From: a virus
Taxonomy: Duplodnaviria > Heunggongvirae > Uroviricota > Caudoviricetes
DNA: 35,675 bases
IMG/VR virus record: IMGVR_UViG_2563366934_000005
Reading direction: 5' to 3' (one strand)
Under the pieces are notes generated by a model that searched no databases, was not told the origin of the DNA, and saw only the letters and a program-made list of their open reading frames with translations. Shown here one piece after another: positions 1,363 to 35,093 of the stretch; within the stretch, counting starts at the first letter, position 1; every line of letters begins with the position of its first letter. Both the position numbers and the translations under genes were made by a program.

Positions 1363-1396
1363 TTAATTTCGATTATTTTTCCCGGATGGAAAATTC

Positions 1397-1440: not shown

Positions 1441-1446
1441 CGTTTC

Positions 1447-1533
1447 GCTGAAAAACATAACCCATAAAATGCTAGCTGTACCAGGAACCACCTCCTTAGC
1501 CTGTGTAATCTCCCTTACACGGGCTTATTTTTT
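1447..1533 (+). ncRNA. cyaR: CyaR (RyeE) Hfq-dependent small RNA
   Basis: 87-nt stretch GCTGAAAAACATAACCCATAAAATGCTAGCTGTACCAGGAACCACCTCCTTAGCC... ending in a stem-loop plus U-run. It matches my recollection of E. coli CyaR in sequence and length, directly downstream of yegQ. Confidence 0.85.
1499..1533 (+). terminator. intrinsic terminator of cyaR (3' part supplied by the att core)
   Basis: 10-bp stem GCCTGTGTAA / TTACACGGGC (one G-U pair) with loop TCTCCC, followed by TTATTTTTT. Confidence 0.7.
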
Positions 1534-3577: not shown

Positions 3578-3591
3578 TTTTCGTCACCTCC

Positions 3592-7046: not shown

Positions 7047-8237
7047 TTAATTGCTGTTAACCGAAGTGACCAGATTTGCCAGGTATTTATCGGTAATACG
7101 CTGGCGCAGGGTCAGGTTTTCAAGAGGAGGCACCGGTGTATAGTCGTAGTCGATATACAGTTTTCCGGCCTTGAGGGTTTCCGCATCGTTGGATTCTTCG
7201 CTGAACCAGCAGGTCGCATCCACGATATAGCCGTTTGTTTTCAGCTCACGGAATTTGGCATTGATGCCGTCAACGATGTCGCGAATCAGCGTTGCGGTGA
7301 TGGGCTTGTCCACCGCCCACATGTGCGCCTCAGCCATCGTGTCGGCCAGCACCTGCGCGGTGCGGGTGTAGTTTTCAAAGAGGAACAGCGGGTCATCAGA
7401 GCAGGTACGGTTACCCCAGAAGCGGAAACCGTCACGGCGAATCAGCGTTGTGACGCCTGACTCGTTAAGCAGGTCAGCATCGGTGCCGGACTCCTGCAAA
7501 TCCCAGAATACGGACGCGCTGATGCCGGTAACACCGTTCACCCCGACGTTGGACAGCGTTTTATGCCAGCCCTGCTCCTGGTCGATTTTAGCGCGCAGAC
7601 CCAGCGCACGGGCAGTGGCATACGCGGTGGCGGTGGTACTGGCGACCGTATCCCATGCGAGGAAATCCGGCCAGATGACCATCAGCTCACGCTGGCTGAA
7701 ATTCTGGCGGTAGGCTTTCACCTCGGAAATGGTTTTACAGCCCCATGCGCTGATATACCCGAAAGCGCGCAGCTTCTGACAGACTGATGCCAGTGCAACA
7801 GCCACCTCTTTGGTGTCCAGTCCCGGCACACCGAGAATACGCGGTTTAACGCCGGTTACCGACTCTGCCGCCAGCAGGGCTTTCAGTCCGGTGTACTGAC
7901 CATTTTCGTCGGTGGTGCCGATGATATTGGAAACGGTCTGCGCGAGTTTCGTTTCCTCGTCGTCGCCGGTGCCGTCTTCCACACGCACGACAACGGTGAC
8001 CGGTTTTGACTGGTCAGCGATGGCCTGCAACGACGCCGCCAGCGTGCCTTTTTTACCGGCCTTTGCAATTGCGCTCTGCACGTTGGTAATCAGCACCGGT
8101 TTATTGAGGGGGAAGGTTTCCGCATCCGCATCGCTGGCCGTGCAGACCATGCCGACAATGGCCGTGGATACGGTGGAAATGACGCGGGTGCCGTCGTTAA
8201 TCTCCAGCACCTGCACGCCGTGATGATAGTCACTCAT
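7047..8237 (-). CDS. FI: contractile tail sheath protein FI
   Basis: 396 aa, the P2 gpFI length. GGAG ribosome-binding site upstream of the ATG. Confidence 0.85.
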   Translation of the reverse strand: MSDYHHGVQVLEINDGTRVISTVSTAIVGMVCTASDADAETFPLNKPVLITNVQSAIAKAGKKGTLAASLQAIADQSKPVTVVVRVEDGTGDDEETKLAQTVSNIIGTTDENGQYTGLKALLAAESVTGVKPRILGVPGLDTKEVAVALASVCQKLRAFGYISAWGCKTISEVKAYRQNFSQRELMVIWPDFLAWDTVASTTATAYATARALGLRAKIDQEQGWHKTLSNVGVNGVTGISASVFWDLQESGTDADLLNESGVTTLIRRDGFRFWGNRTCSDDPLFLFENYTRTAQVLADTMAEAHMWAVDKPITATLIRDIVDGINAKFRELKTNGYIVDATCWFSEESNDAETLKAGKLYIDYDYTPVPPLENLTLRQRITDKYLANLVTSVNSN

Positions 8238-8330
8238 CCGTTTAACTCCGTGGTTAATGGGTGCAACTATTTTCTGTTGTGCAGAGCATGAGACGCTATA
8301 TGACCTGGCTGGTCAGTGGATGAAACAACA
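8238..8330 (-). promoter_or_regulatory. candidate late promoter region for the FI-FII-E-T-U-D operon
   Basis: About 90 bp between the upstream terminator hairpin and the FI start, where P2 places its Ogr-dependent late promoter. I could not identify a convincing TGT-N12-ACA element by eye. Confidence 0.3.
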
Positions 8331-8340
8331 GATAAAGAAA

Positions 8341-8361
8341 AGGCGGGCAATTCGCCCGCCT
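8341..8361 (-). terminator. intrinsic terminator closing the Z/fun cargo transcript
   Basis: GC-rich hairpin AGGCGGGC-AATTC-GCCCGCCT followed on the minus strand by TTTCTTTATCTGTTGTTT. Confidence 0.45.
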
Positions 8362-8600
8362 GTCCTGATTTGTACTCACTCATTTTCCGACTGACAATTT
8401 ACATAGCCCAAACGCTATCAATTCTGACAGTCTGCTTTGAGCGAGGAGCAGACCTTCACGCTTTTCGCTGTTGAGTGACATGAATTATTAAAGAGCATTA
8501 TAAAACTTCACTTTTTCTAATTTCAATGCTTTATTAAAGTCAGCGACATTCAGGCTTATCAATTCAATATTAATATACCATCAGCATTATATAAGAGGTA

Positions 8601-9605
8601 TTATGCTAACCATTTTGGATGCTCTTTATAAACATTATTAAACCACTCGGTCATTTCAGGTGAGTTCGTATCCTTTATCCAAGTTAACTCAAAGTCATCT
8701 CCCATAGATGCAAATATTGATTTCAATTGAGTTATGATTAAACCATAGTAAAATCCAAAAGTTTTTTCTTCATCCTCATTGACTAATGATTCAATATGAC
8801 AACTGAGAATAAATCGAACTCGTGCCGCCGTTGAGGGATGTGTCGATTGAAAATGTTCATGGGGTGATAAGCCATCAGAAAGTTTGAAGTAGCACAGTAT
8901 TAATAGCAATGAAAATGCAATTCCGCCTTCCTTGCTGCTATAAAAATCAAGCAAGTTATTAAGATAAGATACCTTCTGATCAAATGCAGACTGTACATGT
9001 TTTTTTACAATATTAAGAGCAAAACCATCTGCAACTAATTCTCTTGCGTGGCTTGATATTAGTTCTGCGCTATTGATTTTTTTATGTCCTAAAACATCAT
9101 CAAAGATAGTGTCAATAGATTGCTTTTTTGCTCGGTCGCCATGTTTATTAATGAAATGGCCTACTTCGTGACTAACTATAAACAGCATTAGACAATCAAG
9201 AATAAACATAAATAAGTGTGATTCGGACTCACTTTCCTCTCTTGTCTCATTGTTAAACCCAACAAATGGATTAGTAACGAGATGCAAGTCATAAAAGTTT
9301 AAATTAGTACTTTTCCCTGTTATCATCCCTGACCGAAAAATCAAGTCAGATAACTTACATAGTCTATCAAATGTACCATAAGACATAAATATTAATTTTT
9401 CATCATAAATAATGCCGCATTGAAAATGTGAGTTGGTTGTAATGCAAAAATCCAGATCTAATTTTCGAACAGAGTCCATGTATTTACTAAAAAACGGCAG
9501 TACGAGACCATTATCTCTATCATTTATAAAATCATAGATAAGCCCCAATTGATTCTTTGAAAGAATTTCATTGATTTCATTAAGTTTTATTTCAAATCTA
9601 TCCAT
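8601..9605 (-). CDS. cargo protein with ImmA/IrrE-like (M78-type) HExxH zinc-metallopeptidase core; function unknown
   Basis: 334-aa ORF with AAGAGG ribosome-binding site 8 nt upstream. HEVGH at residues 146-150 (nt about 9156-9170) and ELVADGFAL at 189-197, fitting the HExxH ... ExxA(N/D)xFA pattern of COG2856 peptidases. Very AT-rich relative to the phage backbone. Confidence 0.55.
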   Translation of the reverse strand: MDRFEIKLNEINEILSKNQLGLIYDFINDRDNGLVLPFFSKYMDSVRKLDLDFCITTNSHFQCGIIYDEKLIFMSYGTFDRLCKLSDLIFRSGMITGKSTNLNFYDLHLVTNPFVGFNNETREESESESHLFMFILDCLMLFIVSHEVGHFINKHGDRAKKQSIDTIFDDVLGHKKINSAELISSHARELVADGFALNIVKKHVQSAFDQKVSYLNNLLDFYSSKEGGIAFSLLLILCYFKLSDGLSPHEHFQSTHPSTAARVRFILSCHIESLVNEDEEKTFGFYYGLIITQLKSIFASMGDDFELTWIKDTNSPEMTEWFNNVYKEHPKWLA

Positions 9606-9921
9606 AATTAGAACCTCTTAATTAAAATTTTAAATAATCCGCTTAAGTAGCTATGGAGATGTAATTCTAATACTCAATCCACTCATTCAATGGAAAGATT
9701 AGCATTACTTTAACCGCACTTTTGGACTTGACTTACTTCCCTTAAAGCTTCTGGGCACTATGTTAGTAATGTCCGCTCTTCGCACGCAGCGGACATTGCT
9801 AATAGCGGTCTATGTGAAACACGGGGAGTAGGTTAGTTTTAGCGTTAAACACAATAAGAGCACGATGAAGTATCAAAAAGGAAGCATTGCATAGATAATT
9901 TAGGCAAAAACAGAGCTTAAA

Positions 9922-10773
9922 TTACATATCATTCGCTATCAATTCGGTTGAGAGAACCCTTGGAATCAAGCTACTTTTTGAACCATACTTTATATACAGA
10001 AAGTCCATCATCTTTTCAACATCACTTTCATGCTCTACAATGACATATTTAATATCCTTATGTGAAAAGGGTAACCTGTCATCATCATAATATTCGTTAT
10101 ATTTTCTCTTGCCATCTTGAGTTGATATATTTTTCGAAGCAGCGATCACTGGTTTTCCAATTGATTTTTCTATATCTGGAACAAATCGCCACTCCCTCTC
10201 ATCTGCAAAAATATAGTTAGGTTTCTCCTGACCATTGCGTCGTTTCAAAGTTGCCTGGTAATTTTTCATATATCGCAAAGGATCTACAATTTTCTTGTAA
10301 CTAAGAATCGCCGAGTCATATTTCCGCTTTGCATTAGTTAATTGAGATGTTGTTCCTGAAGATTTTATTTCGTCCAAATGCTTTAATAACTTATTAACTT
10401 CTGCTTTTAAACGCCTAATCTCTAGATTATAATTATCAAAAACAGAAGAGTGCTTGGACATGTAAATTACTGGATTAAGTCCATTTTCGTTTGCCCAATC
10501 TTTTGATAATCCTATGCCATAATGGCCATAACTTTCAGTATGCTGGGTAAGCTGTGTTAGCCTGATATCACAAAATGAAACCATCGGTATACCGAAATTT
10601 CTATTCGTGCTCTGGCCTTGTATAAACTCTCTAGCGAAAGAAATTCGAAAATAACTTGAGTCAAGTATCTCAAATAAGGTATCTAACTTTTCAGTAAAAT
10701 GAAACAAGGTCGTTGGGTATAAGCTACGCGACATAATGATCATCCATAATATGATGTATAAACTAAGTATCAT
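9922..10773 (-). CDS. hypothetical cargo protein (283-aa ORF; start may be an internal Met)
   Basis: Long AT-rich ORF at the Z/fun position. Conspicuous LFHFT...L..IL N-terminal motif and a basic coiled-coil-like middle. No clear ribosome-binding site at the first ATG; alternative starts at Met11 and Met14. Confidence 0.5.
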   Translation of the reverse strand: MILSLYIILWMIIMSRSLYPTTLFHFTEKLDTLFEILDSSYFRISFAREFIQGQSTNRNFGIPMVSFCDIRLTQLTQHTESYGHYGIGLSKDWANENGLNPVIYMSKHSSVFDNYNLEIRRLKAEVNKLLKHLDEIKSSGTTSQLTNAKRKYDSAILSYKKIVDPLRYMKNYQATLKRRNGQEKPNYIFADEREWRFVPDIEKSIGKPVIAASKNISTQDGKRKYNEYYDDDRLPFSHKDIKYVIVEHESDVEKMMDFLYIKYGSKSSLIPRVLSTELIANDM

Positions 10774-10952
10774 AAATCAAGGTTATCAGTACTTACCATA
10801 CATCAGCAAGCGGAATTAGCGATAGCGGCCTGCTCCTCATTAATCAACACTAAGAGCTGTTAGCTACTTCCGCTCCTGGCACAGAGCGGACTGTCAGATT
10901 AGGCTTTACTCTGTGCCATAGATATGTAAGCTCACACCAGAGTTCATATAAC

Positions 10953-11480
10953 TTATTGCGGCATTTCCGGCCATTCAGGATTTGCAGGATCCACACGGCT
11001 GACCAGAACACTGTAGCGTTCCCATGCTTCCAGTCGGCTACGCTCCTCATCTGTTGCCATGTTCAGCCTGACAGCGCGCTCCAGTGGCAAAATCACGGAT
11101 TCAGCATCTGCAAGAAGTCTGGCTTTCCGGTTTTCTGCCTGCTGCTGCAATTCCTCTGCCGTATAAATGCGTTTAATCACTGTACCGTCCTTAAACATCC
11201 AGTTCCCTGAAATGTCCGCCCGTCGGTTAGCAGTAATATCCGCCACTTCAACAACACTTAATCCATCCGGTCTGATAGCTGTCACATCCTTTTCCACATA
11301 GCGGATGATATTATCTTTGTCGTACGCTATTTTTAGCGTGTCATCAGCAAAATACTTTTGTTCTTCGTACCAGTTCTTACCATCTTCTGAAAAAAACCAG
11401 ACAACATCAAAGTCTTTTGTCAATTGATATTGTTCAACCGTTTTTGGATTACCCGCCGTAATATTTTTTAAATGCTGCAT
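10953..11480 (-). CDS. G: tail fibre assembly protein G
   Basis: 175 aa, the P2 gpG length, immediately downstream of H. Confidence 0.8.
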
Positions 11481-16241: not shown

Positions 16242-17027
16242 ATGGTCAGCTATAATGTGACTAATGTGTGGGGGCTAATCGTTTTTTTCCTTTGTAGCTT
16301 TGCAGTATTAGCATTTTTTAGCTTTGGTAAAAGTAACCTTATGAGGCTTATTGCACATTATTTCAATTTTGGATATTCAGACAAAAAATTAAAAAGACTT
16401 GACCGCGAGTGGCGCGACATTCAACTATTTAAAATAATTAACGGAATCAATGTATCAGGCATTGAAAATGTGAGAATGATACAGCAGGGACTGATTGATG
16501 GAAAACTAAAAACATCGTATTTTTTCCTTACTCGCATCTGGGGTGACATAACAAAACCACCACACATAATTAAAACAATAATTGTAATTCTGGCCAGTAT
16601 TTTTTACATTCTCCTCGCATGTTACATACACAACGAACAATCCGTTATAGTAAGGGATGCCATAGGCATACCATATAAAAACATGATGTACTATGTTTAT
16701 AGTGACAAAGTTCTTTTATCCTTCAAAAATAAAGCAGTTGAATTTAATAAAACTTATAGCCTTGCCGATTGCAAGAGACTGCAAAACGTATTTATAAAAG
16801 ACACACTTCCTGAGATCGCCTGCAATAAGCTCTTACAGCTAAACGAGGAGGACTCCGAATGGTTAAGCCAGGAGATTAAAGATAATAACAGTCACAAAAA
16901 AGCATTATTAATACTATCCCTCGTCTATTTCACTTCAGGTCTGGTTATATTCCTGTCATATACAAAATTCTTTTACGCCAATAAGAAGGTTTTAGAATAC
17001 AAAGCATCAAATAAAAATCACTCATAA
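16242..17027 (+). CDS. AT-rich membrane protein at the P2 orf30 position (3 predicted transmembrane segments), function unknown
   Basis: 261-aa ORF with AGGAG ribosome-binding site. Encoded opposite to the flanking V and S late genes. Hydrophobic segments at about residues 10-28, 112-131 and 222-241. Confidence 0.6.
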   Translation: MVSYNVTNVWGLIVFFLCSFAVLAFFSFGKSNLMRLIAHYFNFGYSDKKLKRLDREWRDIQLFKIINGINVSGIENVRMIQQGLIDGKLKTSYFFLTRIWGDITKPPHIIKTIIVILASIFYILLACYIHNEQSVIVRDAIGIPYKNMMYYVYSDKVLLSFKNKAVEFNKTYSLADCKRLQNVFIKDTLPEIACNKLLQLNEEDSEWLSQEIKDNNSHKKALLILSLVYFTSGLVIFLSYTKFFYANKKVLEYKASNKNHS

Positions 17028-23299: not shown

Positions 23300-23472
23300 T
23301 GTCAGGAGTCCTGAATAGTGATTAGAGGAGTCACATGTCGGCATCAGTTTCCCGACGATGCGCATCCTCCGCCATCAGTCCCGGATGGCTTATCACTGAC
23401 ACAACAGCACCTTAGCGAATCGCGGGACGCGACTCAGTAGCCTTGCCGTGTATTCATCACGGCGAGGTATTC
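23300..23472. promoter_or_regulatory. divergent late promoter region between O and P
   Basis: 173-bp intergenic region between the divergently transcribed O-N-M-L and P-Q operons. In P2 this holds two Ogr-dependent promoters. Exact elements not resolved by eye. Confidence 0.35.
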
Positions 23473-25245
23473 ATGACCATCACCACAGACACCACTCTTT
23501 TACACGACCCGCGTCGTCAGGCGGCGCTGCTGTACTGGCAGGGGTTTTCCGTGCCGCAGATTGCCGCCATGTTGCAGATGAAACGCCCGACGGTGCAGAG
23601 CTGGAAACAGCGCGACGGCTGGGACAGCGTTGCCCCCATCAGCCGTGTCGAAATGAGTCTGGAAGCGCGGCTGACCCAGCTCATCATCAAACCGCAGAAA
23701 ACCGGCGGTGACTTCAAGGAAATTGACCTGCTGGGACGCCAGATTGAACGACTGGCACGGGTAAACCGTTACAGTCAGACCGGCAACGAGGCAGACCTTA
23801 ATCCGAACGTCGCTAACCGCAACAAAGGCGGGCGGCGCAAACCGAAAAAGAATTTTTTCAGTGACGAGGCCATCGAAAAGCTGGAGCAGATTTTCTTTGA
23901 GCAGTCTTTCGAATATCAGCTGCACTGGTATCGCGCCGGGCTTGAGCACCGCATCCGCGATATCCTGAAATCCCGCCAGATTGGCGCGACGTTTTATTTT
24001 TCCCGCGAGGCGCTGCTGCGCGCCCTGAAAACCGGCCATAACCAGATTTTTCTGTCGGCCAGTAAAACGCAGGCGTATGTGTTCCGCGAATACATCATCG
24101 CCTTTGCCCGTCTGGTTGACGTTGACCTGACCGGTGACCCGATTGTCCTGGGCAATAACGGTGCAAAACTGATTTTTCTCGGCACCAACTCCAACACCGC
24201 ACAGAGCCATAACGGCGACCTGTACGTCGATGAGATTTTCTGGATCCCGAATTTTCAGGTACTGCGTAAGGTGGCATCAGGTATGGCCTCACAGAGTCAC
24301 CTGCGTTCGACCTATTTCTCCACCCCGTCCACGCTGGCGCACGACGCCTACCCGTTCTGGTCGGGTGAACTGTATAACCGGGGACGCGCCAGCGCCGCCG
24401 AACGCGTGGAAATCGACGTCAGTCATAACGCCCTTGCCGGTGGGCTTCTCTGTGCGGACGGTCAGTGGCGACAGATTGTCACCATTGAGGACGCCCTGAA
24501 AGGTGGCTGCACGCTGTTCGACATTGAGCAGCTCAAACGCGAAAACAGCGCCGACGATTTTAAAAACCTGTTCATGTGTGAATTTGTTGACGACAAGGCG
24601 TCGGTGTTCCCGTTCGAGGAGCTGCAACGCTGCATGGTCGACACGCTGGAAGAATGGGAAGACTATGCACCCTTTGCCGCCAATCCGTTCGGCTCCCGCC
24701 CGGTATGGATTGGTTACGACCCGTCACACCGTGGCGACAGCGCCGGATGCGTGGTGCTGGCACCGCCGGTGGTGGCCGGTGGCAAATTCAGAATACTTGA
24801 GCGTCACCAGTGGAAAGGCATGGACTTTGCCACCCAGGCTGAATCCATCCGCAAACTCACCGAAAAATATAACGTCGAATACATCGGTATTGATGCCACC
24901 GGCCTCGGTGTCGGCGTGTTCCAGCTCGTGCGCTCGTTCTATCCCGCCGCGCGCGACATCCGCTACACGCCGGAAATGAAAACCGCAATGGTGCTCAAGG
25001 CAAAAGACGTTATCCGCCGTGGCTGTCTGGAATATGACGTCAGCGCCACCGACATCACCAGCTCGTTTATGGCTATCCGCAAGACCATGACCAGCAGTGG
25101 ACGCAGCGCCACCTATGAGGCCAGCCGCAGCGAGGAAGCCAGCCACGCCGACCTCGCCTGGGCGACCATGCACGCCCTGTTAAATGAGCCACTCACCGCC
25201 GGTATCAGCACCCCGCTGACATCCACCATTCTGGAGTTTTACTGA
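23473..25245 (+). CDS. P: terminase large (ATPase) subunit P
   Basis: 590 aa from the ATG at 23473 (MTITTDTTLLHD...), the P2 gpP length. GAGG ribosome-binding site; TGATG overlap with Q. Confidence 0.85.
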   Translation: MTITTDTTLLHDPRRQAALLYWQGFSVPQIAAMLQMKRPTVQSWKQRDGWDSVAPISRVEMSLEARLTQLIIKPQKTGGDFKEIDLLGRQIERLARVNRYSQTGNEADLNPNVANRNKGGRRKPKKNFFSDEAIEKLEQIFFEQSFEYQLHWYRAGLEHRIRDILKSRQIGATFYFSREALLRALKTGHNQIFLSASKTQAYVFREYIIAFARLVDVDLTGDPIVLGNNGAKLIFLGTNSNTAQSHNGDLYVDEIFWIPNFQVLRKVASGMASQSHLRSTYFSTPSTLAHDAYPFWSGELYNRGRASAAERVEIDVSHNALAGGLLCADGQWRQIVTIEDALKGGCTLFDIEQLKRENSADDFKNLFMCEFVDDKASVFPFEELQRCMVDTLEEWEDYAPFAANPFGSRPVWIGYDPSHRGDSAGCVVLAPPVVAGGKFRILERHQWKGMDFATQAESIRKLTEKYNVEYIGIDATGLGVGVFQLVRSFYPAARDIRYTPEMKTAMVLKAKDVIRRGCLEYDVSATDITSSFMAIRKTMTSSGRSATYEASRSEEASHADLAWATMHALLNEPLTAGISTPLTSTILEFY

Positions 25246-26279
25246 TGAGCAAGAAAAAAGGGAAAACACCGCAACCTGCGGCAAAAAAAATGACCGCCAG
25301 CGCCCCGAAAATGGAGGCATTCACCTTTGGTGAGCCGGTGCCGGTACTCGACCGCCGTGACATTCTAGATTACGTCGAGTGCATCAGTAACGGCAGATGG
25401 TATGAGCCGCCGGTCAGCTTTACCGGTCTGGCAAAAAGCCTGCGTGCTGCCGTACATCACAGCTCACCGATTTACGTCAAACGTAATATTCTGGCCTCGA
25501 CATTTATCCCGCATCCGTGGCTTTCCCAGCAGGATTTCAGCCGCTTTGTGCTGGATTTTCTGGTGTTCGGTAATGCGTTTCTGGAAAAGCGTTACAGCAC
25601 TACCGGTAAGGTCATCAGACTGGAAACCTCACCGGCAAAATATACCCGCCGTGGCGTGGAGGAGGATGTTTACTGGTGGGTGCCGTCCTTCAACGAGCCG
25701 ACAGCCTTCGCGCCCGGTTCCGTGTTTCACCTGCTGGAGCCCGATATTAATCAGGAGCTGTACGGCCTGCCGGAATATCTCAGCGCCCTTAACTCTGCCT
25801 GGCTGAATGAATCGGCCACGCTGTTCCGCCGCAAGTATTACGAAAACGGCGCACATGCCGGATACATCATGTACGTCACCGATGCCGTGCAGGATCGCAA
25901 CGATATCGAAATGCTTCGCGAAAACATGGTGAAGTCGAAAGGCCGCAACAACTTTAAAAATCTGTTTCTCTATGCCCCGCAGGGGAAAGCCGACGGCATT
26001 AAAATTATCCCGCTCAGTGAAGTGGCAACGAAGGACGATTTTTTTAATATCAAAAAAGTCAGCGCCGCTGACCTGCTGGACGCACACCGCATCTCCTTTC
26101 AGTTGATGGGCGGCAAGCCGGAGAACGTCGGGTCACTGGGAGATATTGAGAAAGTGGCAAAGGTCTTTGTCCGCAATGAGCTTATCCCGTTACAGGACAG
26201 GATCCGCGAGATAAACGGCTGGCTCGGTCAGGAGGTCATCCGCTTTAAAAACTACTCACTGGACACTGACAACGGCTGA
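25245..26279 (+). CDS. Q: portal protein Q
   Basis: 344 aa, the P2 gpQ length, reading toward cos. Confidence 0.85.
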   Translation: MSKKKGKTPQPAAKKMTASAPKMEAFTFGEPVPVLDRRDILDYVECISNGRWYEPPVSFTGLAKSLRAAVHHSSPIYVKRNILASTFIPHPWLSQQDFSRFVLDFLVFGNAFLEKRYSTTGKVIRLETSPAKYTRRGVEEDVYWWVPSFNEPTAFAPGSVFHLLEPDINQELYGLPEYLSALNSAWLNESATLFRRKYYENGAHAGYIMYVTDAVQDRNDIEMLRENMVKSKGRNNFKNLFLYAPQGKADGIKIIPLSEVATKDDFFNIKKVSAADLLDAHRISFQLMGGKPENVGSLGDIEKVAKVFVRNELIPLQDRIREINGWLGQEVIRFKNYSLDTDNG

Positions 26280-26448: not shown

Positions 26449-26467
26449 GTGCTTTCCCCGCCTCGCC
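26449..26467. other. cos site (19-nt cohesive-end sequence)
   Basis: GTGCTTTCCCCGCCTCGCC is the reverse complement of GGCGAGGCGGGGAAAGCAC, which I recall as the P2 cohesive end. It lies between Q and the old/tin-position cargo, as in P2. Confidence 0.7.
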
Positions 26468-26782
26468 CGCCCGCTTCATGGGGCGGTTTTAATGCAGTTG
26501 CATGATGAAACTGAAATCACATCAGAACTGACCGAAACTGACAAAAAGAATAGTATCTGACACATGCAAAAACACGCACTTAATATACGCCTATCTATAG
26601 CTCCTACAGGATTGTCAAAAAACGACCAACTCGTCATAGCGTAAACACATTTGGCTCAACGAACACTTACGTTATATGCCTCTTGAACATATCAAAGTCT
26701 TAAGGTAGATCTTTACCACTAAGTGGCTATATTAAGCTGCTTTTTTACATACAATAAAAGCTTTATCGTATGAGGCATAAAA

Positions 26783-28999
26783 ATGGAACTTAGATTAAAA
26801 AATGTTACCAGTTATAAGAAAGACGCCTTCACAATACTGAATCTTGAAAAAAGAGTAAACATACTATACGGCCAAAATGGTTGTGGCAAATCTACCATTT
26901 CAAATTATTTCTACGACTCTACACACACAGATTATAACGAGTGTGAATGTACCCTTCTTGACAATTACAAACCTCTTGTTTACAACACTAAATTTATTGA
27001 AGATAATTTCTACAATGCACAGGAACAAAAAGGTGTTTTTACATTAAGTAAAGAAAATGCAGATATTGAAAAACAATTAATTGAAAAAGAAGCAATTAAA
27101 CAGCAACTCACAGAGCAATATAGACAAAAAAAAGGAGTGTTATTGAAATTAGAAGCAGAAATGGAAAAAAAAGAAAATGAATACATCGAATCGATCTGGA
27201 AAAAAACAGAACCAATCAGAAACTCTGTACTAAAAACCTTAATGAAAGGTAAAGTTGGCTATAAAAGACCTTTTTTTGAGATGATAAAATCATCCTCACC
27301 AATCACCTTTATTAATTTAAATGATATAGCAAAAGAATACTCTATACTATTAGAAAATAGAAACAATGAAACCGCATTAATAACTCCTTTACATCCATAT
27401 ATCCCATCAATTGATGATGTAAATACATTAGCAACACCTATAATAGATACAAGCAATAGCTATTTATCAGAAACCATTAATAAACTTCATAATCTTGACT
27501 GGGTAAAAAAAGGTAAAGAACATTATTTAGACGGTTCTACATGTCCGTTTTGTCAGGAAAAAACTATTAGTCACGAATTTTTAAATGCCCTTAAATCAAT
27601 ATTTGACGAAAGTTATTCAAAGAAAGTAAAACAGCTCTCAGATATAAAGTCAGTTTATGAGAAAAATACTATATATCATTTTAACGAAATACAAAACAAT
27701 ATATCATCATGTGCACTAATCAATGAGAAAGATAAAGAGAACATTATTTCCAATATTAAAATATTGCAAAACATTGCAGAAAAAAATTTAATAAACATTA
27801 TTGATAAGATCAACAATCCATCAACATGCGTTACATTAGAAATTGATAAAGAACTAGAAAATCATGTTCAGGAAAGCATAGGCGCTGTTAACAAGAAAAT
27901 AAGAGACATAAATGATAAGGTTAAAAAACTCAAAGAGTATGAGAATAAAATCGGAAAACAAGTTTGGGGGGCTCTCCATGCTTTTTGCAGCGATGATTTA
28001 GAGAATTTATCCAAACACAAAGAAAAATTCTTTGATATCAAAAAGAAAGTTCATGATGAATTAAATAATATTGAGCAACAAGGAAAAGAAAATAATCTCA
28101 CAATAAAAGCATTGCGAGATAAAATATCTAACATTGATTCTACGATAGACTCAATAAACACCCATTTAAAAAATCTAGGGATCTCTGGTTTTTGTATTGA
28201 AAAACATGCAGAAAGAAAAGATATGTACATTATATCTCGACCAGGGCATACAAAAAACCAAAATGTTTATAGATCTCTTAGCGAAGGTGAAAAAACACTA
28301 ATAACGTTTCTTTATTTTTTAGAGTGCTGTAAAGGTAAAACCGATAAAAATGATACCGATAGCAGGGATATTTTTATTGTTATTGACGATCCAATATCTA
28401 GTCTATCGCAAAACTATGTCTACGACATCGCATCAATTATTCATCACCACATTATAAAAAATGAATTAACAAAGAAGGTATTAATCCTTACTCACAATCT
28501 TTATTTCTTTCATGAACTTATTAAGCTATCTCCTAAAAGCAGAGAAGACAAACTATTTAAGAAAAACTATTATCTAGGTAGAGTAACGAAAAATGATTTT
28601 AGTATAATTACTGAAATACAAAAAAACAGCATACAGAATGAATATCAATCTTTGTGGCAAATATTAAAAGATGCAAAAGATGGCAAAGCAAACAAAATCA
28701 TAATACCGAATATTATGAGAAACATACTAGAATATTATTTTGCATTTGTTCATAGAACAGATGCTCTACAAGATGAATTAACAAAGTTGGCACGCGACGA
28801 TAGCAACAGTGATTTCAAAGCATTCTACAGATACATTAACAGAGGTTCTCACTCTGATGCGGTAAATATTACTGATATGGGCGACATAGACCCAGATAAA
28901 TACCTAAAACAATTGAGAACAATATTTTCAGCTACTGGTGACGAAATGCATTATTTAAAAATGATGGACGAACTAGAAGAGGAGAACGTTACCGCTTAG
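26783..28999 (+). CDS. RloC/PrrC-like ABC-type ATPase with CxxC zinc-hook-like insert and C-terminal HEPN-like nuclease motif (putative anticodon nuclease / defence protein)
   Basis: 738-aa AT-rich ORF with GAGG ribosome-binding site. Walker A GQNGCGKST (aa 30-38), signature-like LSEGEK (499-504), Walker B IFIVIDDP (531-538) and H-loop LILTHN. A roughly 400-aa Lys/Glu-rich insert carries CPFC (254-257). C-terminal RNILE (646-650) and RYINRGSH (683-690) fit R-x3-E and R-x6-H. Confidence 0.55.
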   Translation: MELRLKNVTSYKKDAFTILNLEKRVNILYGQNGCGKSTISNYFYDSTHTDYNECECTLLDNYKPLVYNTKFIEDNFYNAQEQKGVFTLSKENADIEKQLIEKEAIKQQLTEQYRQKKGVLLKLEAEMEKKENEYIESIWKKTEPIRNSVLKTLMKGKVGYKRPFFEMIKSSSPITFINLNDIAKEYSILLENRNNETALITPLHPYIPSIDDVNTLATPIIDTSNSYLSETINKLHNLDWVKKGKEHYLDGSTCPFCQEKTISHEFLNALKSIFDESYSKKVKQLSDIKSVYEKNTIYHFNEIQNNISSCALINEKDKENIISNIKILQNIAEKNLINIIDKINNPSTCVTLEIDKELENHVQESIGAVNKKIRDINDKVKKLKEYENKIGKQVWGALHAFCSDDLENLSKHKEKFFDIKKKVHDELNNIEQQGKENNLTIKALRDKISNIDSTIDSINTHLKNLGISGFCIEKHAERKDMYIISRPGHTKNQNVYRSLSEGEKTLITFLYFLECCKGKTDKNDTDSRDIFIVIDDPISSLSQNYVYDIASIIHHHIIKNELTKKVLILTHNLYFFHELIKLSPKSREDKLFKKNYYLGRVTKNDFSIITEIQKNSIQNEYQSLWQILKDAKDGKANKIIIPNIMRNILEYYFAFVHRTDALQDELTKLARDDSNSDFKAFYRYINRGSHSDAVNITDMGDIDPDKYLKQLRTIFSATGDEMHYLKMMDELEEENVTA

Positions 29000-29026: not shown

Positions 29027-29046
29027 CGACGGTGCTTACGCACCGT
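29027..29046 (+). terminator. weak hairpin downstream of the 738-aa gene
   Basis: GACGGTGC-TTAC-GCACCGTC stem-loop 28 nt after the stop, but no U-tract. Confidence 0.25.
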
Positions 29047-29222
29047 CTCCCAACGCCCAAAGCGGTAGCGGTTGTACTGGCGTACATTCACTAGCTTTAA
29101 CATGAGGCAATCTCCATGCCAGCACTATTGTTGCCAATAGCAGCCTTTATACCCTTTGTACAAAGCTAATACCAAGAGTAATGCAAAGTAGATGTCCCAA
29201 GCGGTAACGGGGCTATTCTATG

Positions 29223-31514
29223 TCAAACACAGAAAAAATCAAAGCGCCCTATGAATCCCCCCCAACCATCAGCGACCGGATACGTGAATTTTTTCCCGTC
29301 ATAATTTACGGTCGCTCCACGCGCCAGCGCCTCAAGCTCCCATCGCTGCGGCATGATACCGTTCTGAGCAAGGTCAACGCGGATACGGGTGATTTGCAAT
29401 CGTTCAGACCTGGTCAGTCTGGCAGATGGTGCAATTTCATGCGGTTTTAACGGGCTTCCGTTTCTTTGCTGACGGTTTGGCGTTCTCAGGTCGTATTTTA
29501 ATGCGCCCCTGAGCGCCCTCACGACCTCCGGTTCATTCCATTCAATAACACCGTCATCAACCAGATTAAGCACTGCTGCGGCGTGCTCAGAAGGTGTGGG
29601 AGCCGGTAACGAAGTATCACCACCGGTGAGCTTTCCACAGTTATTGACAGGACTCCGAGGCGCGGCGATGCCGCTTTTTAAAGTCAAAGGCTCAACGACC
29701 GGAACTTTCGGCACAATGCGCCAGTCCGTCGTTCTGGTGATATGAATATGACGCGCGCCGAGATGCGGCGCGTAAATGCCGACCACTCTCTCGACTTCTT
29801 CCTCGTACTCGTTAACGTCATCCGACGGGCTACGGGCGACTCTGACAGTCTGGCAATCACGCGGAACATTTGCCCCACCCTGCGCGCTGATATACAACGC
29901 AAAATCACCACTGTCTGCGGCGGCACGTGCAGCCTCAACGCGTTCGTCAAACTCATCAGCAATGCTGACGCCGCGAGGCAATTTGCGTAGTTCACGGTAA
30001 GCCCCCATTGTCGGCAGGCCAACCGTTTTAAATTGCGGGATGCGCCACGTTGACGCCCATGCGGTAACAGCCGCAGCAGTATCTTTCAGCGGCCTGCCGG
30101 TATCGTTATCGAGCTGACCATCCAGTGCATAGCCATCGATGTTTTTTGAGATGTATTTCGCGATATACCCCGCAGCACCGCCCCGGTTAAGATGTTTTGC
30201 CTGAAAACGGTTTCGCGCGGCTCCTCTTTCGTCGCCATCCTCTTTGAGCGCATAGCGACGCATGATTTCGATAATCTGGTTACGCTGGCGTGGATTACAA
30301 AAAAGCATCATATGCCAGTGCGGCGTTCCGTCGTGGTGTGGCTCGACGACTCGCAAACCGTAGACCTGTAAATCATTATCCTTGAATGCCGTGCGCATCA
30401 GGCTCCAGATACGACAGAGATAACGCTGCGCATCCTTTGGATTAAATGCCTCATCGTTCCAGCCGTGATTAAGCTGAACGGTTTTACTTTCGCCTTTTCT
30501 GACCTGACGAGTCGGGTGATACTTTGACGGCGCGGTCAGCGTGATAAACATCCCCACATCACCCTCTGCGGCGGCGTAACGCTCAATACCGGCAATGGTG
30601 TTCATCAGCTCCATCCGGCGAATTTCAGGATTAGAAATACTGCCCATCACCTTACTGATAAGGTCGATGCGCTCGCCGGTTTCCCTGTTTTCAAGGTCAC
30701 ACGATTTAAGAAATTCCAGATTTGCCTGGCGGCGCGCACGCACATCACGAATGGCGTGTTTACTGGCATAAGGAGAACGGTCTTTATTGACCTCCCCGAC
30801 AGCTATCAGTAACGCTTCATGCCAGCGCATACGCTGGCCTTTAAGCTGATGAGTCCACCACTCATCGTTAAACAGACGGGCAATGGCAGAATATGCCTGC
30901 CTCGTGGTCATCTGCCCTTTACGGTATTTTTTCCAGTAGAGAGGGGAAATATTGAAAGCACGTGCAGCGCCAGCAACATGACCATAGAGGTGAGCCTGCG
31001 CCTCATCCGTAAACAGCGATTCTTTTTCGCCATGCGCATCCACCCAGGCATCGCTGAGTTCCTCATACATCATGAAAAGCTGCGATGAGATACGGGCAGC
31101 AAACTTTTTCAGCTCCTTGTCATTCATTCCCGGCAGGCGCGCATAGTGGTCACGCTCTGCCAGAAACAGTAACGACGCGTCGGTGTTCATTTCATGGCGC
31201 TGATTCACACGCTCAATGCGCGGCCATAAACGACGCTGAAAAGTGGATGTGAGGAAATAAAACCCGTGTACCGGGCTTTTATTGCGCCGGATGTAGTCAT
31301 AGCGTGAAGTAAACAGCGAGCGCAAAAAGTAAGGCAGGCGGTTAATCGTGGATAAAACACCTTGCACCTGACGCATCTCGTCACGTGTAAGGGGTCTTTC
31401 GCGCCCGACGGCCTCGCGTGGCGCGTTCCATGCATAAGCACCGGTAAACGCCTTACCGGTGCCTGCAGCAAATGCTGAAGGAGGGACAAAACGCCCGGAG
31501 GCTTTAACGGCCAT
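29223..31514 (-). CDS. A: replication initiation protein A (rolling-circle nickase)
   Basis: About 763 aa from the ATG at 31514 (MAVKASGRFVPPSAF...), close to P2 gpA (about 761 aa). The track ORF is extended 14 codons upstream to a TTG. Confidence 0.85.
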   Translation of the reverse strand: MAVKASGRFVPPSAFAAGTGKAFTGAYAWNAPREAVGRERPLTRDEMRQVQGVLSTINRLPYFLRSLFTSRYDYIRRNKSPVHGFYFLTSTFQRRLWPRIERVNQRHEMNTDASLLFLAERDHYARLPGMNDKELKKFAARISSQLFMMYEELSDAWVDAHGEKESLFTDEAQAHLYGHVAGAARAFNISPLYWKKYRKGQMTTRQAYSAIARLFNDEWWTHQLKGQRMRWHEALLIAVGEVNKDRSPYASKHAIRDVRARRQANLEFLKSCDLENRETGERIDLISKVMGSISNPEIRRMELMNTIAGIERYAAAEGDVGMFITLTAPSKYHPTRQVRKGESKTVQLNHGWNDEAFNPKDAQRYLCRIWSLMRTAFKDNDLQVYGLRVVEPHHDGTPHWHMMLFCNPRQRNQIIEIMRRYALKEDGDERGAARNRFQAKHLNRGGAAGYIAKYISKNIDGYALDGQLDNDTGRPLKDTAAAVTAWASTWRIPQFKTVGLPTMGAYRELRKLPRGVSIADEFDERVEAARAAADSGDFALYISAQGGANVPRDCQTVRVARSPSDDVNEYEEEVERVVGIYAPHLGARHIHITRTTDWRIVPKVPVVEPLTLKSGIAAPRSPVNNCGKLTGGDTSLPAPTPSEHAAAVLNLVDDGVIEWNEPEVVRALRGALKYDLRTPNRQQRNGSPLKPHEIAPSARLTRSERLQITRIRVDLAQNGIMPQRWELEALARGATVNYDGKKFTYPVADGWGGFIGRFDFFCV

Positions 31515-31779
31515 ATGAGCCAAAAGCCTCTGAACAACGCCTGCTGAGTTGCTCAACCTGCGCGTTTAAATCAGCAAAAGACTTTGCGCTTCCGGTCAGA
31601 ATATCGTGATGCATCAGGCCGGAAACGAGCTGGCTTAATTTCGGATAATAACCAACCACCGCCAGCCATTCCTGACCGGCGTTTTTACCGCTTTCCGCTC
31701 TCTTTTTCTCGTGGAGAATAAACTGAAAGCTGTCACTGGTAACGACATAACGTTCGCCAATTTCAATACGAATACTCAT
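31504..31779 (-). CDS. small early-operon protein (P2 orf83 position)
   Basis: 91-aa ORF directly upstream of A in the early operon. Confidence 0.5.
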   Translation of the reverse strand: MSIRIEIGERYVVTSDSFQFILHEKKRAESGKNAGQEWLAVVGYYPKLSQLVSGLMHHDILTGSAKSFADLNAQVEQLSRRCSEAFGSYGR

Positions 31780-34079: not shown

Positions 34080-35093
34080 ATGGCAATCAAAAAACTCGAT
34101 GATGGTCGATATGAAGTGGACATCCGCCCTACTGGACGTAACGGAAAACGCATCCGTAGGAAGTTTGATAAGAAAAGCGAAGCTGTCGCTTTCGAAAAAT
34201 ACACGTTGTACAACCACCACAATAAAGAATGGCTATCAAAACCAACAGACAAACGACGTCTGTCGGAACTGACACAGATCTGGTGGGATTTAAAGGGTAA
34301 ACACGAAGAGCATGGGAAATCTAATCTTGGAAAAATTGAAATCTTCACAAAAATAACGAATGACCCATGCGCATTTCAAATCACGAAATCCCTTATCAGC
34401 CAGTACTGCGCCACCCGAAGAAGTCAGGGTATTAAACCTTCGAGTATCAATCGTGATTTAACATGTATTAGCGGCATGTTTACAGCCCTGATTGAAGCGG
34501 AGTTATTCTTTGGTGAGCACCCTATCAGAGGGACAAAGAGGCTTAAGGAGGAAAAACCAGAAACAGGCTATCTCACACAGGAAGAAATTGCCTTACTGCT
34601 TGCAGCACTTGACGGCGACAACAAAAAGATTGCGATTCTTTGCCTGAGTACAGGAGCACGTTGGGGAGAAGCAGCTCGTTTGAAAGCAGAAAATATCATC
34701 CATAACCGCGTCACGTTTGTTAAAACGAAAACAAACAAACCACGCACCGTCCCGATCTCAGAGGCTGTTGCCAAAATGATCGCGGATAACAAACGAGGTT
34801 TTTTATTCCCTGATGCTGATTACCCTCGCTTCAGAAGAACAATGAAAGCAATAAAACCGGATTTGCCAATGGGGCAAGCCACACATGCACTAAGGCACAG
34901 CTTTGCCACTCATTTCATGATTAATGGAGGAAGTATTATCACGCTACAACGGATACTAGGTCACACGCGGATTGAGCAAACTATGGTTTACGCTCATTTT
35001 GCGCCAGAGTACCTTCAGGACGCCATTTCTCTTAATCCGCTAAGAGGTGGTACTGAGGCCGAGAGTGTCCACACAGTGTCCACAGTAGAGTAA
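34080..35093 (+). CDS. int: tyrosine integrase
   Basis: 337 aa, the P2 Int length. C-terminal catalytic motifs ...HALRHSFATHF...LGHTRIEQTMVYAHF (R, H-x-x-R, Y). Adjacent to attL. Confidence 0.9.
   Translation: MAIKKLDDGRYEVDIRPTGRNGKRIRRKFDKKSEAVAFEKYTLYNHHNKEWLSKPTDKRRLSELTQIWWDLKGKHEEHGKSNLGKIEIFTKITNDPCAFQITKSLISQYCATRRSQGIKPSSINRDLTCISGMFTALIEAELFFGEHPIRGTKRLKEEKPETGYLTQEEIALLLAALDGDNKKIAILCLSTGARWGEAARLKAENIIHNRVTFVKTKTNKPRTVPISEAVAKMIADNKRGFLFPDADYPRFRRTMKAIKPDLPMGQATHALRHSFATHFMINGGSIITLQRILGHTRIEQTMVYAHFAPEYLQDAISLNPLRGGTEAESVHTVSTVE

What the first reader, a model, noticed from the sequence alone, without database searches (positions are those of the whole stretch)
26783..28999. RloC/PrrC-like ATPase-nuclease occupying the P2 old/tin defence hotspot next to cos
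In P2 this position holds the old and tin exclusion genes. Here it holds a single AT-rich 738-aa ORF transcribed toward A. The sequence shows an ABC-type ATPase split by a roughly 400-aa Lys/Glu-rich insert carrying CPFC (aa 254-257), the Rad50-like zinc-hook arrangement that distinguishes RloC from PrrC. The C-terminus has RNILE (R-x3-E) and RYINRGSH (R-x6-H), compatible with the catalytic signature of PrrC/RloC anticodon nucleases in the HEPN superfamily. No TOPRIM-like DxD motif is apparent, so it does not look like OLD. The inference is a stand-alone, phage-borne tRNA-cleaving abortive-infection module.
Basis: partly seen in the sequence, partly recalled or inferred. Interest (0 to 1): 0.8.

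Follow-up and report, generated by a model that had tools for sequence, protein, structure and literature searches.

The report
Known RloC tRNA nuclease in P2 prophage

Summary
Window 26783-28999 (+) is one intact 738-aa ORF with about 29% G+C in a prophage of about 55%. It lies between the P2 portal gene/cos site and the replication gene A, which is the old/tin hotspot.

Every sequence feature that defines RloC (Davidov & Kaufmann 2008) is present and conserved in 103 homologues:
- The ABC-ATPase motifs are present.
- A 381-aa helical insert carries an invariant CPFC.
- The motif R646-x3-E650-x39-S689-H690 is present.

The protein aligns end to end with a clade that has the layout of the experimentally characterised Geobacillus RloC (hhalign E 5e-43). 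It is not OLD (no TOPRIM domain) and not PrrC (it has the insert and no linked restriction-modification locus).

The HEPN assignment of the C-terminal domain rests on motifs and the literature. My fold searches were inconclusive.

It is not new. Table S1 of the founding RloC paper lists the E. coli APEC O1 copy (738 aa, phage neighbours), which is 99.8% identical in DNA and has the same flanking genes. Rousset et al. 2022 list this exact protein accession at the P2 hotspot as "AAA_13". PADLOC models it as PDC-S06, and a public source names it "wobble nucleotide-excising tRNase".

The remaining gaps are experimental: phage protection, the trigger and the tRNA targets of this copy.

The parts
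26783..28999 (+). rloC-type gene, 738 aa including stop codon. It is the single occupant of the hotspot.
   Evidence: ORF. AAA_13 at E=1e-111 over residues 17-716. PDC-S06 at E=1e-254. The identical E. coli locus is annotated 'AAA family ATPase' WP_001583661.
26783..27046 (+). N-terminal lobe of the ABC-ATPase head (aa 1-88), with Walker A G30-S37 (26870-26893).
   Evidence: G30, G35 and K36 are invariant in 103 homologues. The model predicts beta strands and a P-loop helix at pLDDT about 90. Rad50 and SMC N-terminal heads match in PDB profile and fold searches.
27047..28189 (+). Helical insert (aa 89-469) that splits the ATPase head.
   Evidence: Almost all helix in the model: H90-141 and H403-464 are the long arms, with shorter helices between them. 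A 3.5-residue hydrophobic periodicity is significant for 143-248, 356-401 and 403-464 but not for 89-141 or 276-344. Weak LmuB and JetC coiled-coil matches.
27488..27568 (+). Conserved hook region (aa 236-262), sequence HNLDWVKKGKEHYLDGSTCPFCQEKTI. The CPFC is at aa 254-257 (27542-27553).
   Evidence: C254 and C257 are 103/103, P255 99, F256 101, W240 102 and G244 101. It is the most conserved part of the insert (0.60 against about 0.37). It lies in a loop between helices 238-248 and 264-273. Geobacillus RloC has the same motif, EWVREGLGLHKGLECAFC. 222 of 230 long homologues have W[VIL]xxG-x5-14-CxxC.
28190..28615 (+). C-terminal lobe of the ABC-ATPase head (aa 470-611). It holds the signature LSEGE 499-503 (28277-28291), the Walker B/D-loop FIVIDDPISSLS 530-541 (28370-28405) and the H-loop H571 (28493-28495).
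   Evidence: L499, S500, E501, G502, E503, D535, D536, P537 and H571 are invariant or nearly so. The PrrC profile matches here.
28616..28996 (+). C-terminal all-helical domain (aa 612-738), the presumed anticodon-nuclease domain. It holds N643-x-M645-R646-x3-E650 (28718-28732 for R646-E650) and R683-x6-H690 (28829-28852).
   Evidence: N643 and R646 are invariant; E650, S689 and H690 are at least 98% conserved; R683 is 88/103. The domain model has seven helices at pLDDT 79.8. In hhalign, these motifs align with NNMRKFLE and RVINEYSH of the Geobacillus-RloC-like clade. The equivalent residues R692, E696 and H737 are essential in Geobacillus RloC.
26449..26467 (-). P2 cos cohesive-end sequence GGCGAGGCGGGGAAAGCAC, 316 bp upstream of the start codon.
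   Evidence: Exact match, 0 expected by chance. The identity of this 19-mer as the P2 cohesive end is from my own knowledge.
26557..26586 (+). Sigma-70-like promoter candidate (CTGACA-18-TAATAT) between cos and the gene. This is a consensus match only.
   Evidence: The number of such sites in the region is no higher than in shuffles, so this is only a candidate.
25245..26279 (+). Portal gene Q, the left boundary of the hotspot.
29223..31556 (-). Replication endonuclease gene A, convergent with rloC and the right boundary of the hotspot.

Best explanation
The ORF encodes an RloC-family protein: a Rad50-like ABC ATPase whose head is split by a helical insert carrying a CxxC zinc hook, fused to a C-terminal anticodon-nuclease domain. 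It is carried as a single-gene cargo in the cos-proximal defence hotspot of a P2-like prophage.

The proposed mechanism is taken from Geobacillus and Acinetobacter RloC and is inferred, not shown, for this protein:
1. The lysogen makes the protein at a low level.
2. In the resting dimer, the zinc hooks keep the nuclease silent.
3. Binding of DNA ends, such as breaks produced during an infection, switches on ATP hydrolysis.
4. ATP hydrolysis releases the nuclease.
5. The R646/E650/H690 site cuts tRNA anticodon loops, possibly excising the wobble nucleotide so that phage tRNA repair enzymes cannot mend the cut.
6. Translation stops and the infection aborts, which protects the lysogen population and with it the prophage.

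Shown here: the gene, its position, all family-defining sequence features and their conservation, and end-to-end homology to the Geobacillus-RloC-like clade. Inferred: zinc binding, DNA sensing, tRNA cleavage and phage exclusion.
For: - **Family profiles:** AAA_13 full-length at E=1e-111. PDC-S06 at E=1e-254.
- **Defining features:** all RloC features are present and conserved across 103 homologues. The E-to-H spacing is 36-45 residues in 97 of 103.
- **Shared hook motif:** WVxxG-x9-10-CxFC is shared with Geobacillus RloC.
- **Profile-profile comparison:** hhalign against a roughly 790-800-aa clade gives probability 100%, E=5e-43 over 690 columns. That clade has the Geobacillus layout: CAFC about 294, R694/E698/H739 against C288/C291 and R692/E696/H737 in Geobacillus.
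- **Structure:** the model shows a split head, a helical insert and a helical C-domain at pLDDT 82.5. Rad50 is the top PDB match.
- **Prior listing:** Davidov & Kaufmann Table S1 #51 lists E. coli APEC O1 YP_852004, 738 aa, with neighbours 'phage replication initiation, capsid'. The APEC O1 copy is 99.8% identical in DNA and has the same flanks.
- **Public names:** one source names the APEC O1 allele 'wobble nucleotide-excising tRNase'. Streptococcus prophage homologues are annotated 'translation-disabling ACNase'.
- **Mechanism in the literature:** triad mutants abolish the nuclease. Hook mutants activate it and zinc inhibits it. A DNA-dependent ATPase acts as the switch. DNA-break inducers activate RloC in vivo.
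- **Hotspot context:**. A 64.7%-identical homologue sits in the same P-Q-[x]-A slot of the P2-like Enterobacter phage ENT4.
Against: - No experiment exists on this protein or its subfamily in the literature I could search. Rousset et al. list it, but it is not in their table of tested systems.
- The window clade is only about 20% identical to the Geobacillus-like clade.
- The C-domain alone gives weak profile-profile support (probability 27%, P=6.7e-4).
- The C-domain is not recognised by the PrrC profile.
- The model does not show one long Rad50-type antiparallel coiled coil. It shows two long arms plus a cluster of shorter helices around the hook, so the hook geometry may differ.
- The loop after H690 has pLDDT below 50.
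Confidence: 0.8

Rival explanations
1. It is a separate prophage-associated ABC-ATPase + HEPN subfamily, the 'APECO1_4465-type' of Anantharaman et al. 2013. It shares RloC's architecture but has its own trigger or RNA target. Examples would be different tRNAs, no wobble excision, or a phage protein or replication intermediate as the signal instead of double-strand ends.
For: [quoted passage not shown] The window clade is only about 20% identical to the Geobacillus-like clade. PADLOC keeps several separate PDC-S06 models. The insert is predicted to be less coiled-coil-like than Rad50. RloC targets already differ between species, tRNA-Lys for Geobacillus and tRNA-Glu/Gln for Acinetobacter.
Against: The founding RloC paper itself counts the APEC O1 protein as an RloC orthologue. 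All defining motifs, including the WVxxG...CxFC hook context, are shared. I could not verify that APECO1_4465 (gi 117623091) is this gene.
Confidence: 0.25
2. It is the sensor half of a multi-component system and needs a partner elsewhere. Candidates are a type I restriction-modification enzyme acting in trans, as PrrC needs EcoprrI, or a separate nuclease, as in Lamassu, PARIS or Septu.
For: There are weak PADLOC matches to LmuB (2e-10), AriA (7e-6) and mad3/mad8. Davidov & Kaufmann note that APEC O1 'encodes type I EcoK like' and discuss regulation by restriction-modification in trans.
Against: No second gene lies between cos and A, and ENT4 has the same single-gene layout. The matches to other systems cover only the shared ABC head. 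The protein carries its own conserved effector triad. Geobacillus RloC has an internal switch and works without a partner.
Confidence: 0.1
3. The C-terminal domain is not a nuclease. The protein would be a Rad50/SMC-like DNA-binding ATPase that acts on DNA or serves prophage maintenance, and the conserved R/E/H residues would be structural or regulatory.
For: Fold searches with the C-domain gave no significant HEPN or RNase match. The PrrC profile does not hit the domain alone. The Pfam AAA_13 entry is a generic ATPase description.
Against: N643, R646, E650, S689 and H690 are essentially invariant across phyla, while the surrounding sequence is about 35% conserved. The same three residues are catalytically essential in Geobacillus RloC. 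No Mre11-like or other partner nuclease is present.
Confidence: 0.05
4. It is an OLD-family (ABC ATPase + TOPRIM) exclusion protein, a diverged allele of P2 old.
For: It has the same genomic slot and orientation as old and an ABC-ATPase N-terminus.
Against: No TOPRIM or OLD profile matches in Pfam, NCBIfam or PADLOC. The only DxD triplets are poorly conserved. The whole length is covered by AAA_13 and PDC-S06 models.
Confidence: 0.01

Closest known systems
RloC of Geobacillus kaustophilus HTA426 (Davidov & Kaufmann 2008; Klaiman et al. 2012, 2013)
   Same: The domain order is the same: ABC head N-lobe, helical insert with CxxC, ABC head C-lobe, then a helical nuclease domain. The hook context WVxxG...CxFC is shared. 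The R-x3-E...SH triad has the same spacing, 39 residues here and 40 in Geobacillus. The size class is the same (738 against 804 aa). Both are single genes without a linked silencer and sit on a mobile element.
   Different: The window clade is about 20% identical to the Geobacillus-like clade. The insert is somewhat shorter, and the model shows it as less of a continuous coiled coil. The carrier is a P2-like prophage hotspot rather than an IS4 transposon. There are no biochemical data for this copy.
PrrC anticodon nuclease of E. coli (prr locus)
   Same: Both have an ABC-ATPase head fused to a C-terminal anticodon-nuclease domain with an Arg-x3-Glu...His triad. The PADLOC PrrC profile matches residues 490-730 at E=1e-12.
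   Different: PrrC is 341-416 aa with no coiled-coil/zinc-hook insert. It is always embedded in a type Ic restriction-modification locus that silences it. Here the gene has the insert and P2 flanks. The PrrC profile does not recognise the C-domain alone.
P2 Old (ABC ATPase + TOPRIM), the canonical occupant of this hotspot
   Same: It sits in the same slot next to cos, is a single gene convergent with A, and has an ABC-ATPase sensor. A 2026 preprint reports Old as an abortive tRNase that responds to DNA defects, so the logic of a DNA-state sensor coupled to a tRNA cutter is the same.
   Different: The effector domain is unrelated: TOPRIM in Old, and the PrrC/RloC-type (HEPN-class) domain here. 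Old has no zinc-hook insert. No sequence relationship exists beyond the ABC head.
Rad50 / SbcC / SMC-head ATPases
   Same: The head fold is the best match in solved structures (7zr1 Rad50 at E=1e-6; SMC heads). Both have a CPxC hook in a helical insert.
   Different: There is no Mre11 or SbcD partner. The insert is much shorter. An extra C-terminal nuclease domain is present that Rad50 lacks.
PADLOC candidate system PDC-S06
   Same: The best model, PDLC04886, matches end to end (2-730 against 4-724 of 727) at E=1e-254. The window protein is a member.
   Different: PDC-S06 is a computational 'phage defence candidate' label with no described mechanism. In effect it re-labels RloC-like AAA_13 proteins.

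Membership tests
RloC (Davidov & Kaufmann 2008) | ABC-ATPase motifs shared with PrrC (Walker A, signature, Walker B/D-loop, H-loop) | tested here: met
   G30-x4-GKS37, LSEGE 499-503, FIVIDDPISS 530-539 and H571 are all invariant or at least 98% conserved in 103 homologues. AAA_13, SMC_N and AAA_23 match.
RloC (Davidov & Kaufmann 2008) | A largely alpha-helical insert splits the ATPase head and has a central loop carrying CX2C (zinc hook) | tested here: met
   The insert spans aa 89-469 and is nearly all helix. CPFC 254-257 lies in the loop 249-263. C254 and C257 are 103/103. The hook region is the conservation peak of the insert. The motif context is shared with Geobacillus RloC.
RloC (Davidov & Kaufmann 2008) | C-proximal Arg-X3-Glu-X36-52-His, with Ser often before His | tested here: met
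   R646-x3-E650-x39-S689-H690. Conservation is 103, 101, 101 and 102 of 103. The spacing is 36-45 residues in 97 of 103 homologues.
RloC (Davidov & Kaufmann 2008) | Size 658-897 aa | tested here: met
   738 aa. Full-length homologues are 697-796 aa.
RloC (Davidov & Kaufmann 2008) | Detectable end-to-end homology to characterised RloC | tested here: met
   hhalign between the window clade and the clade with the Geobacillus layout gives probability 100%, E=5e-43 over 690 columns. The Geobacillus sequence itself could not be fetched; only its hook segment from the paper's supplement was compared. The founding paper lists the APEC O1 orthologue.
RloC (Davidov & Kaufmann 2008) | Anticodon-nuclease activity with wobble-nucleotide excision; zinc-responsive and DNA/ATP-dependent switch | not testable with these tools
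   These are biochemical properties, known only for Geobacillus and Acinetobacter RloC.
PrrC | Compact protein (341-416 aa) whose ABC head is not split by a coiled-coil insert | tested here: not met
   738 aa with a 381-aa insert.
PrrC | Gene embedded in a type Ic restriction-modification (hsd/prr) locus that silences it | tested here: not met
   The flanks are the P2 portal gene/cos and replication gene A.
PrrC | Match to a PrrC profile across the nuclease domain | tested here: inconclusive
   The PADLOC PrrC profile matches 490-730 at E=1e-12 but gives no hit when only residues 612-738 are supplied.
HEPN superfamily (Anantharaman et al. 2013) | Rx4-6H motif | tested here: met
   R683-x6-H690. 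R683 is 88/103 and H690 is 102/103. The motif aligns with RVINEYSH of the Geobacillus-like clade.
HEPN superfamily (Anantharaman et al. 2013) | All-alpha HEPN fold | tested here: inconclusive
OLD family (P2 old, GajA) | C-terminal TOPRIM nuclease domain with a conserved acidic DxD | tested here: not met
   No TOPRIM or OLD match in Pfam, NCBIfam or PADLOC. DxD at 524-526 and 701-703 is conserved in only about half of the homologues or fewer, 43-50 of 103 per position.
PADLOC PDC-S06 | Full-length match to a PDC-S06 profile as a single-gene system | tested here: met
   PDLC04886 at E=1.2e-254, residues 2-730 against 4-724 of 727. It is the only gene in the slot.
P2 cos-proximal defence hotspot cargo (Rousset et al. 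2022) | Located between gpQ/cos and gpA of a P2-like prophage | tested here: met
   The exact accession WP_001583661 is listed as 'AAA_13' in their Table S5.

The most novel reading that the evidence does not exclude
The prophage-borne clade represented here may be a functionally distinct branch of RloC, possibly the 'APECO1_4465-type' ABC-HEPN group. In this reading it has taken over the role of P2 Old at the same slot. It would be an ABC-ATPase sentinel that reads DNA ends or replication intermediates of a superinfecting phage, perhaps only when RecBCD is blocked, and would answer with tRNA cleavage through a HEPN-class rather than a TOPRIM nuclease. That would make the P2 hotspot a place where unrelated nucleases are swapped under one conserved 'DNA-state sensor to tRNA cutter' logic. 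It would also provide a tractable E. coli model for RloC, whose natural trigger and anti-phage role have never been shown in a native host-phage pair.
Probability: 0.3. Interest if true: 0.5.

Novelty: already known. Interest (0 to 1): 0.2.

Why it matters
As an annotation result it matters little. The family was defined and characterised biochemically in 2008-2013. The APEC O1 copy of this gene is in the founding paper's orthologue table, and the P2 hotspot and this protein's presence in it were catalogued in 2022.

It has some practical value. RefSeq still calls the protein only "AAA family ATPase" and PHROGs lists it as "unknown function", so the RloC label is worth attaching.

There is also an open experimental question. 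No RloC has been shown to protect a natural host against a natural phage, and this copy sits in E. coli, in a well-understood prophage, next to a hotspot where old, tin and others have been tested. A lysogen-versus-deletion experiment would be straightforward.

Tried and rejected
- **Solved structures by sequence:** the single protein gave no hits at E<=1. The family profile hit only SMC, Rad50 and AriA heads and coiled coils, and found no RloC or PrrC structure.
- **Model coordinates:** they are not exposed, so I could not measure whether R646, E650 and H690 cluster or where the hook sits relative to the head.
- **PrrC profile on the C-domain alone:** no hit.
- **Reference sequences:** I tried to obtain Geobacillus RloC and E. 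coli PrrC for direct alignment. Two homologue searches returned neither by name. As stand-ins I used a clade with the Geobacillus layout and the hook segment printed in the paper's supplement.
- **APECO1_4465:** I tried to establish whether APECO1_4465 / gi 117623091 of the HEPN survey is this gene. The supplement and a literature search did not resolve it. The cluster look-up gave names but no locus tags.
- **Rejected assignments:** OLD/TOPRIM, Lamassu LmuB, PARIS AriA and MADS. Each has only weak head-domain matches against an E=1e-254 full-length PDC-S06 match.
- **Rfam:** nothing in the locus itself; the window's only match is the CyaR sRNA outside the prophage.
- **Promoter and terminator scans:** the promoter scan gave no more sites than shuffles. 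No canonical terminator was found downstream.
- **Literature:** I searched for experimental tests of an E. coli or P2 RloC and of PDC-S06 and found none.
Full report
**Observation**

Window 26783-28999 (+) is a single ATG-initiated ORF of 738 codons. A GAGG Shine-Dalgarno lies 7 nt upstream. G+C across the ORF is 0.28-0.31, while both flanks are about 0.55, the usual signature of horizontally acquired cargo.

The ORF is a real gene. Pfam AAA_13 covers residues 17-716 at E=1e-111. The PADLOC candidate-defence model PDC-S06 covers 2-730 at E=1e-254. PHROG 2801 covers 1-737.

**Context**

Upstream lie the P2-type large terminase (23443-25245) and portal (25245-26279) genes. Downstream, and convergent, is replication endonuclease A (29223-31556). 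An identical E. coli locus is annotated this way. The 19-nt P2 cohesive-end sequence, recalled from my own knowledge, occurs once and exactly at 26449-26467.

Rousset et al. 2022 describe the interval between gpA and gpQ next to cos as the P2 hotspot that holds old and tin in the reference phage. No other plausible gene lies between cos and A.

**What the protein is**

I collected 117 homologues and aligned the 103 full-length ones, which range from 65% down to about 20% identity. The conservation is as follows:
- The ABC motifs are invariant or nearly so: G30, G35, K36; LSEGE 499-503; D535-D536-P537; H571.
- C254 and C257 are 103/103, with P255 at 99 and F256 at 101. The preceding W240-V-x-x-G244 is also essentially invariant.
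- In the C-terminal domain, N643 and R646 are 103/103, E650 is 101, S689 is 101 and H690 is 102.
- The two DxD triplets in the protein are conserved in only about half of the sequences or fewer.

The hook region (236-262) is the conservation peak of an otherwise variable insert (0.60 against about 0.37).

An AlphaFold2 model built on 69 sequences (pLDDT 82.5) shows these elements:
- an N-terminal head lobe (1-88);
- helices 90-248;
- a loop (249-263) carrying the CPFC;
- helices 264-464;
- the second head lobe (471-611);
- an all-helical C-terminal domain (620-727).

Its best matches among solved structures are Rad50 (7zr1, E=1e-6) and SMC heads with coiled coils, followed by Lamassu LmuB and PARIS AriA. 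No RloC or PrrC structure exists in the PDB copy.

**Membership**

Davidov & Kaufmann (2008, PMC2610378) define RloC by four features:
- PrrC-like ABC-ATPase motifs;
- a helical insert with a central CX2C that splits the ATPase as in Rad50;
- a C-proximal Arg-X3-Glu-X36-52-His motif in which Ser often precedes His;
- a size of 658-897 aa.

The window protein meets all four. Its motif is R646-x3-E650-x39-S689-H690, and its size is 738 aa. In Geobacillus RloC the equivalent residues are C288/C291 and R692/E696/H737. Alanine substitutions of the triad abolish the nuclease, and hook mutations hyper-activate it.

The Jpred alignment in the paper's supplement prints the Geobacillus hook segment as EWVREGLGLHKGLECAFCG. 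The window protein reads LDWVKKGKEHYLDGSTCPFCQ. Of the long homologues I retrieved, 222 of 230 carry W[VIL]xxG-x5-14-CxxC.

A second homologue search seeded with the most distant hits returned a large clade of 790-800 aa. It has WVRQGIDKHREKRENCAFC at about 279-297 and R694/E698/H739, which is the Geobacillus layout. Profile-profile alignment of the window clade against that clade is end to end, with probability 100%, E=5e-43 and 690 columns.

With the C-domain alone the statistics are weak (probability 27%, P=6.7e-4). Even so, the alignment places N-x-M-R-x-x-L-E on N-N-M-R-K-F-L-E and R-Y-I-N-R-G-S-H on R-V-I-N-E-Y-S-H.

**Families it does not belong to**

- **PrrC:** it has the insert and is twice PrrC's size. 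It is not in a restriction-modification locus. The PADLOC PrrC profile (E=1e-12 on the whole protein) draws its score from the ABC C-lobe and gives no hit on residues 612-738 alone.
- **OLD family:** no TOPRIM or OLD profile matches.
- **Lamassu, PARIS and MADS:** the weak matches cover only the shared head.

**The HEPN question**

The Rx4-6H motif is present (R683-x6-H690; R683 is 88/103). Anantharaman et al. 2013 assign the PrrC/RloC nuclease domains to HEPN.

**Mechanism (inferred)**

The published work on Geobacillus and Acinetobacter RloC shows the following:
- The ATPase is DNA-dependent and activates the nuclease.
- Hook mutations bypass that requirement.
- Zinc inhibits the nuclease.
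- DNA-break inducers activate RloC in vivo.

Transferred to this locus, the scenario is as follows. The lysogen expresses a silent dimer. DNA ends generated during a superinfection trigger ATP hydrolysis. The R646/E650/H690 site then cuts tRNA anticodon loops, translation stops and the infection aborts. None of these steps has been shown for this protein.

A 2026 preprint reports that P2 Old, the canonical occupant of the slot, is itself an ABC-ATPase-controlled abortive tRNase that responds to DNA defects. If so, the two cargos would follow the same logic with unrelated nuclease domains.

**Novelty**

The finding is correct but already known.
- Table S1 of the founding RloC paper lists [quoted passage not shown]. 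The APEC O1 chromosome has exactly one copy, 99.8% identical in DNA to the window gene, between the portal gene and the replication endonuclease gene.
- Rousset et al. 2022 list the exact accession of the window protein's E. coli twin (WP_001583661) at the P2 hotspot as "AAA_13". It is not among the systems they tested.
- A public source already names the APEC O1 allele "wobble nucleotide-excising tRNase". Streptococcus prophage homologues are deposited as "translation-disabling ACNase".
- The HEPN survey notes a prophage-borne APEC O1 ABC-HEPN protein (APECO1_4465). This may be the same gene, but I could not verify it.

**Distribution**

- The gene is present at 99% identity or more in 44 of 5,426 complete E. 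coli genomes, always on the chromosome.
- A 64.7%-identical homologue occupies the same P-Q-[x]-A slot in the P2-like Enterobacter phage ENT4.
- Only 9 of 50,697 phage records carry any homologue.
- Relatives occur across Pseudomonadota, Bacteroidota, Bacillota, Actinomycetota and Campylobacterota.

I found no experimental test of this E. coli/P2 RloC or of PDC-S06.

**Verdict**

The novelty rating is "already known". The interest score is low (0.2). The residual value is a better annotation than "AAA family ATPase" and an easy experimental system for the still-unproven antiviral role of RloC.

Noticed in passing
window 8300-10900 (ORFs 9922-10773 - and 8601-9605 -): A second AT-rich island (G+C about 0.33) lies between the tail sheath gene (7047-8237) and the tail-fibre assembly gene (10953-11480), which is the position of the P2 Z/fun hotspot. 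It holds an AbiGi-family protein (PADLOC 1.9e-41, Pfam PF10899 7e-31). It also holds a 334-aa protein of PHROG 20713 (unknown function) with only a weak Peptidase_M48 match (5.5e-5). No AbiGii partner was detected.
   Followed up: partly
window 16242-17027 (+): A 261-aa ORF in a third AT-rich patch (G+C about 0.39) is transcribed against the surrounding tail and lysis genes. It has no Pfam or PADLOC match and belongs to PHROG 2407, function unknown. It may be another accessory or moron gene.
   Followed up: partly
window 1-1530: The host flank holds a Peptidase_U32 gene (1-1362, yegQ-like) followed by the CyaR/RyeE sRNA at 1445-1530 (Rfam 100.7 bits). An integrase gene lies at the other end (34080-35093). 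The prophage therefore sits at the yegQ-cyaR site.
   Followed up: partly
L084 4435-6641 (E. coli CP164412.1) and L085: Other E. coli P2-like prophages carry a 53%-identical relative in the same portal-[x]-A slot. There it is split into a 167-aa N-terminal ORF (with Walker A) and a 546-aa ORF in a different frame, so it appears frameshifted. The 546-aa product stands for 1,244 member sequences, more than the 449 in the cluster of the intact window-type protein. This may reflect counter-selection of a toxic gene or clonal spread of a pseudogene.
   Followed up: partly
L083 (Enterobacter phage ENT4, PV844615.1) 3501-5684: This unannotated P2-like phage genome carries a 64.7%-identical RloC homologue in the same terminase-portal-[x]-A arrangement. 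The exact P2 cos 19-mer is absent from the stretch examined.
   Followed up: yes
window 29028-29047: An 8-bp G+C-rich hairpin (GACGGTGC-TTAC-GCACCGTC) lies in the 223-bp gap between the convergent rloC and A genes. It has no T-run on either strand and was not called as a terminator by the scan.
   Followed up: no
window 28850-28876 (aa 690-698): In both structure models, the loop that starts at the presumed catalytic His690 has pLDDT below 50, while the flanking helices are confident. This could be a flexible active-site or substrate-binding loop, or a modelling gap.
   Followed up: no
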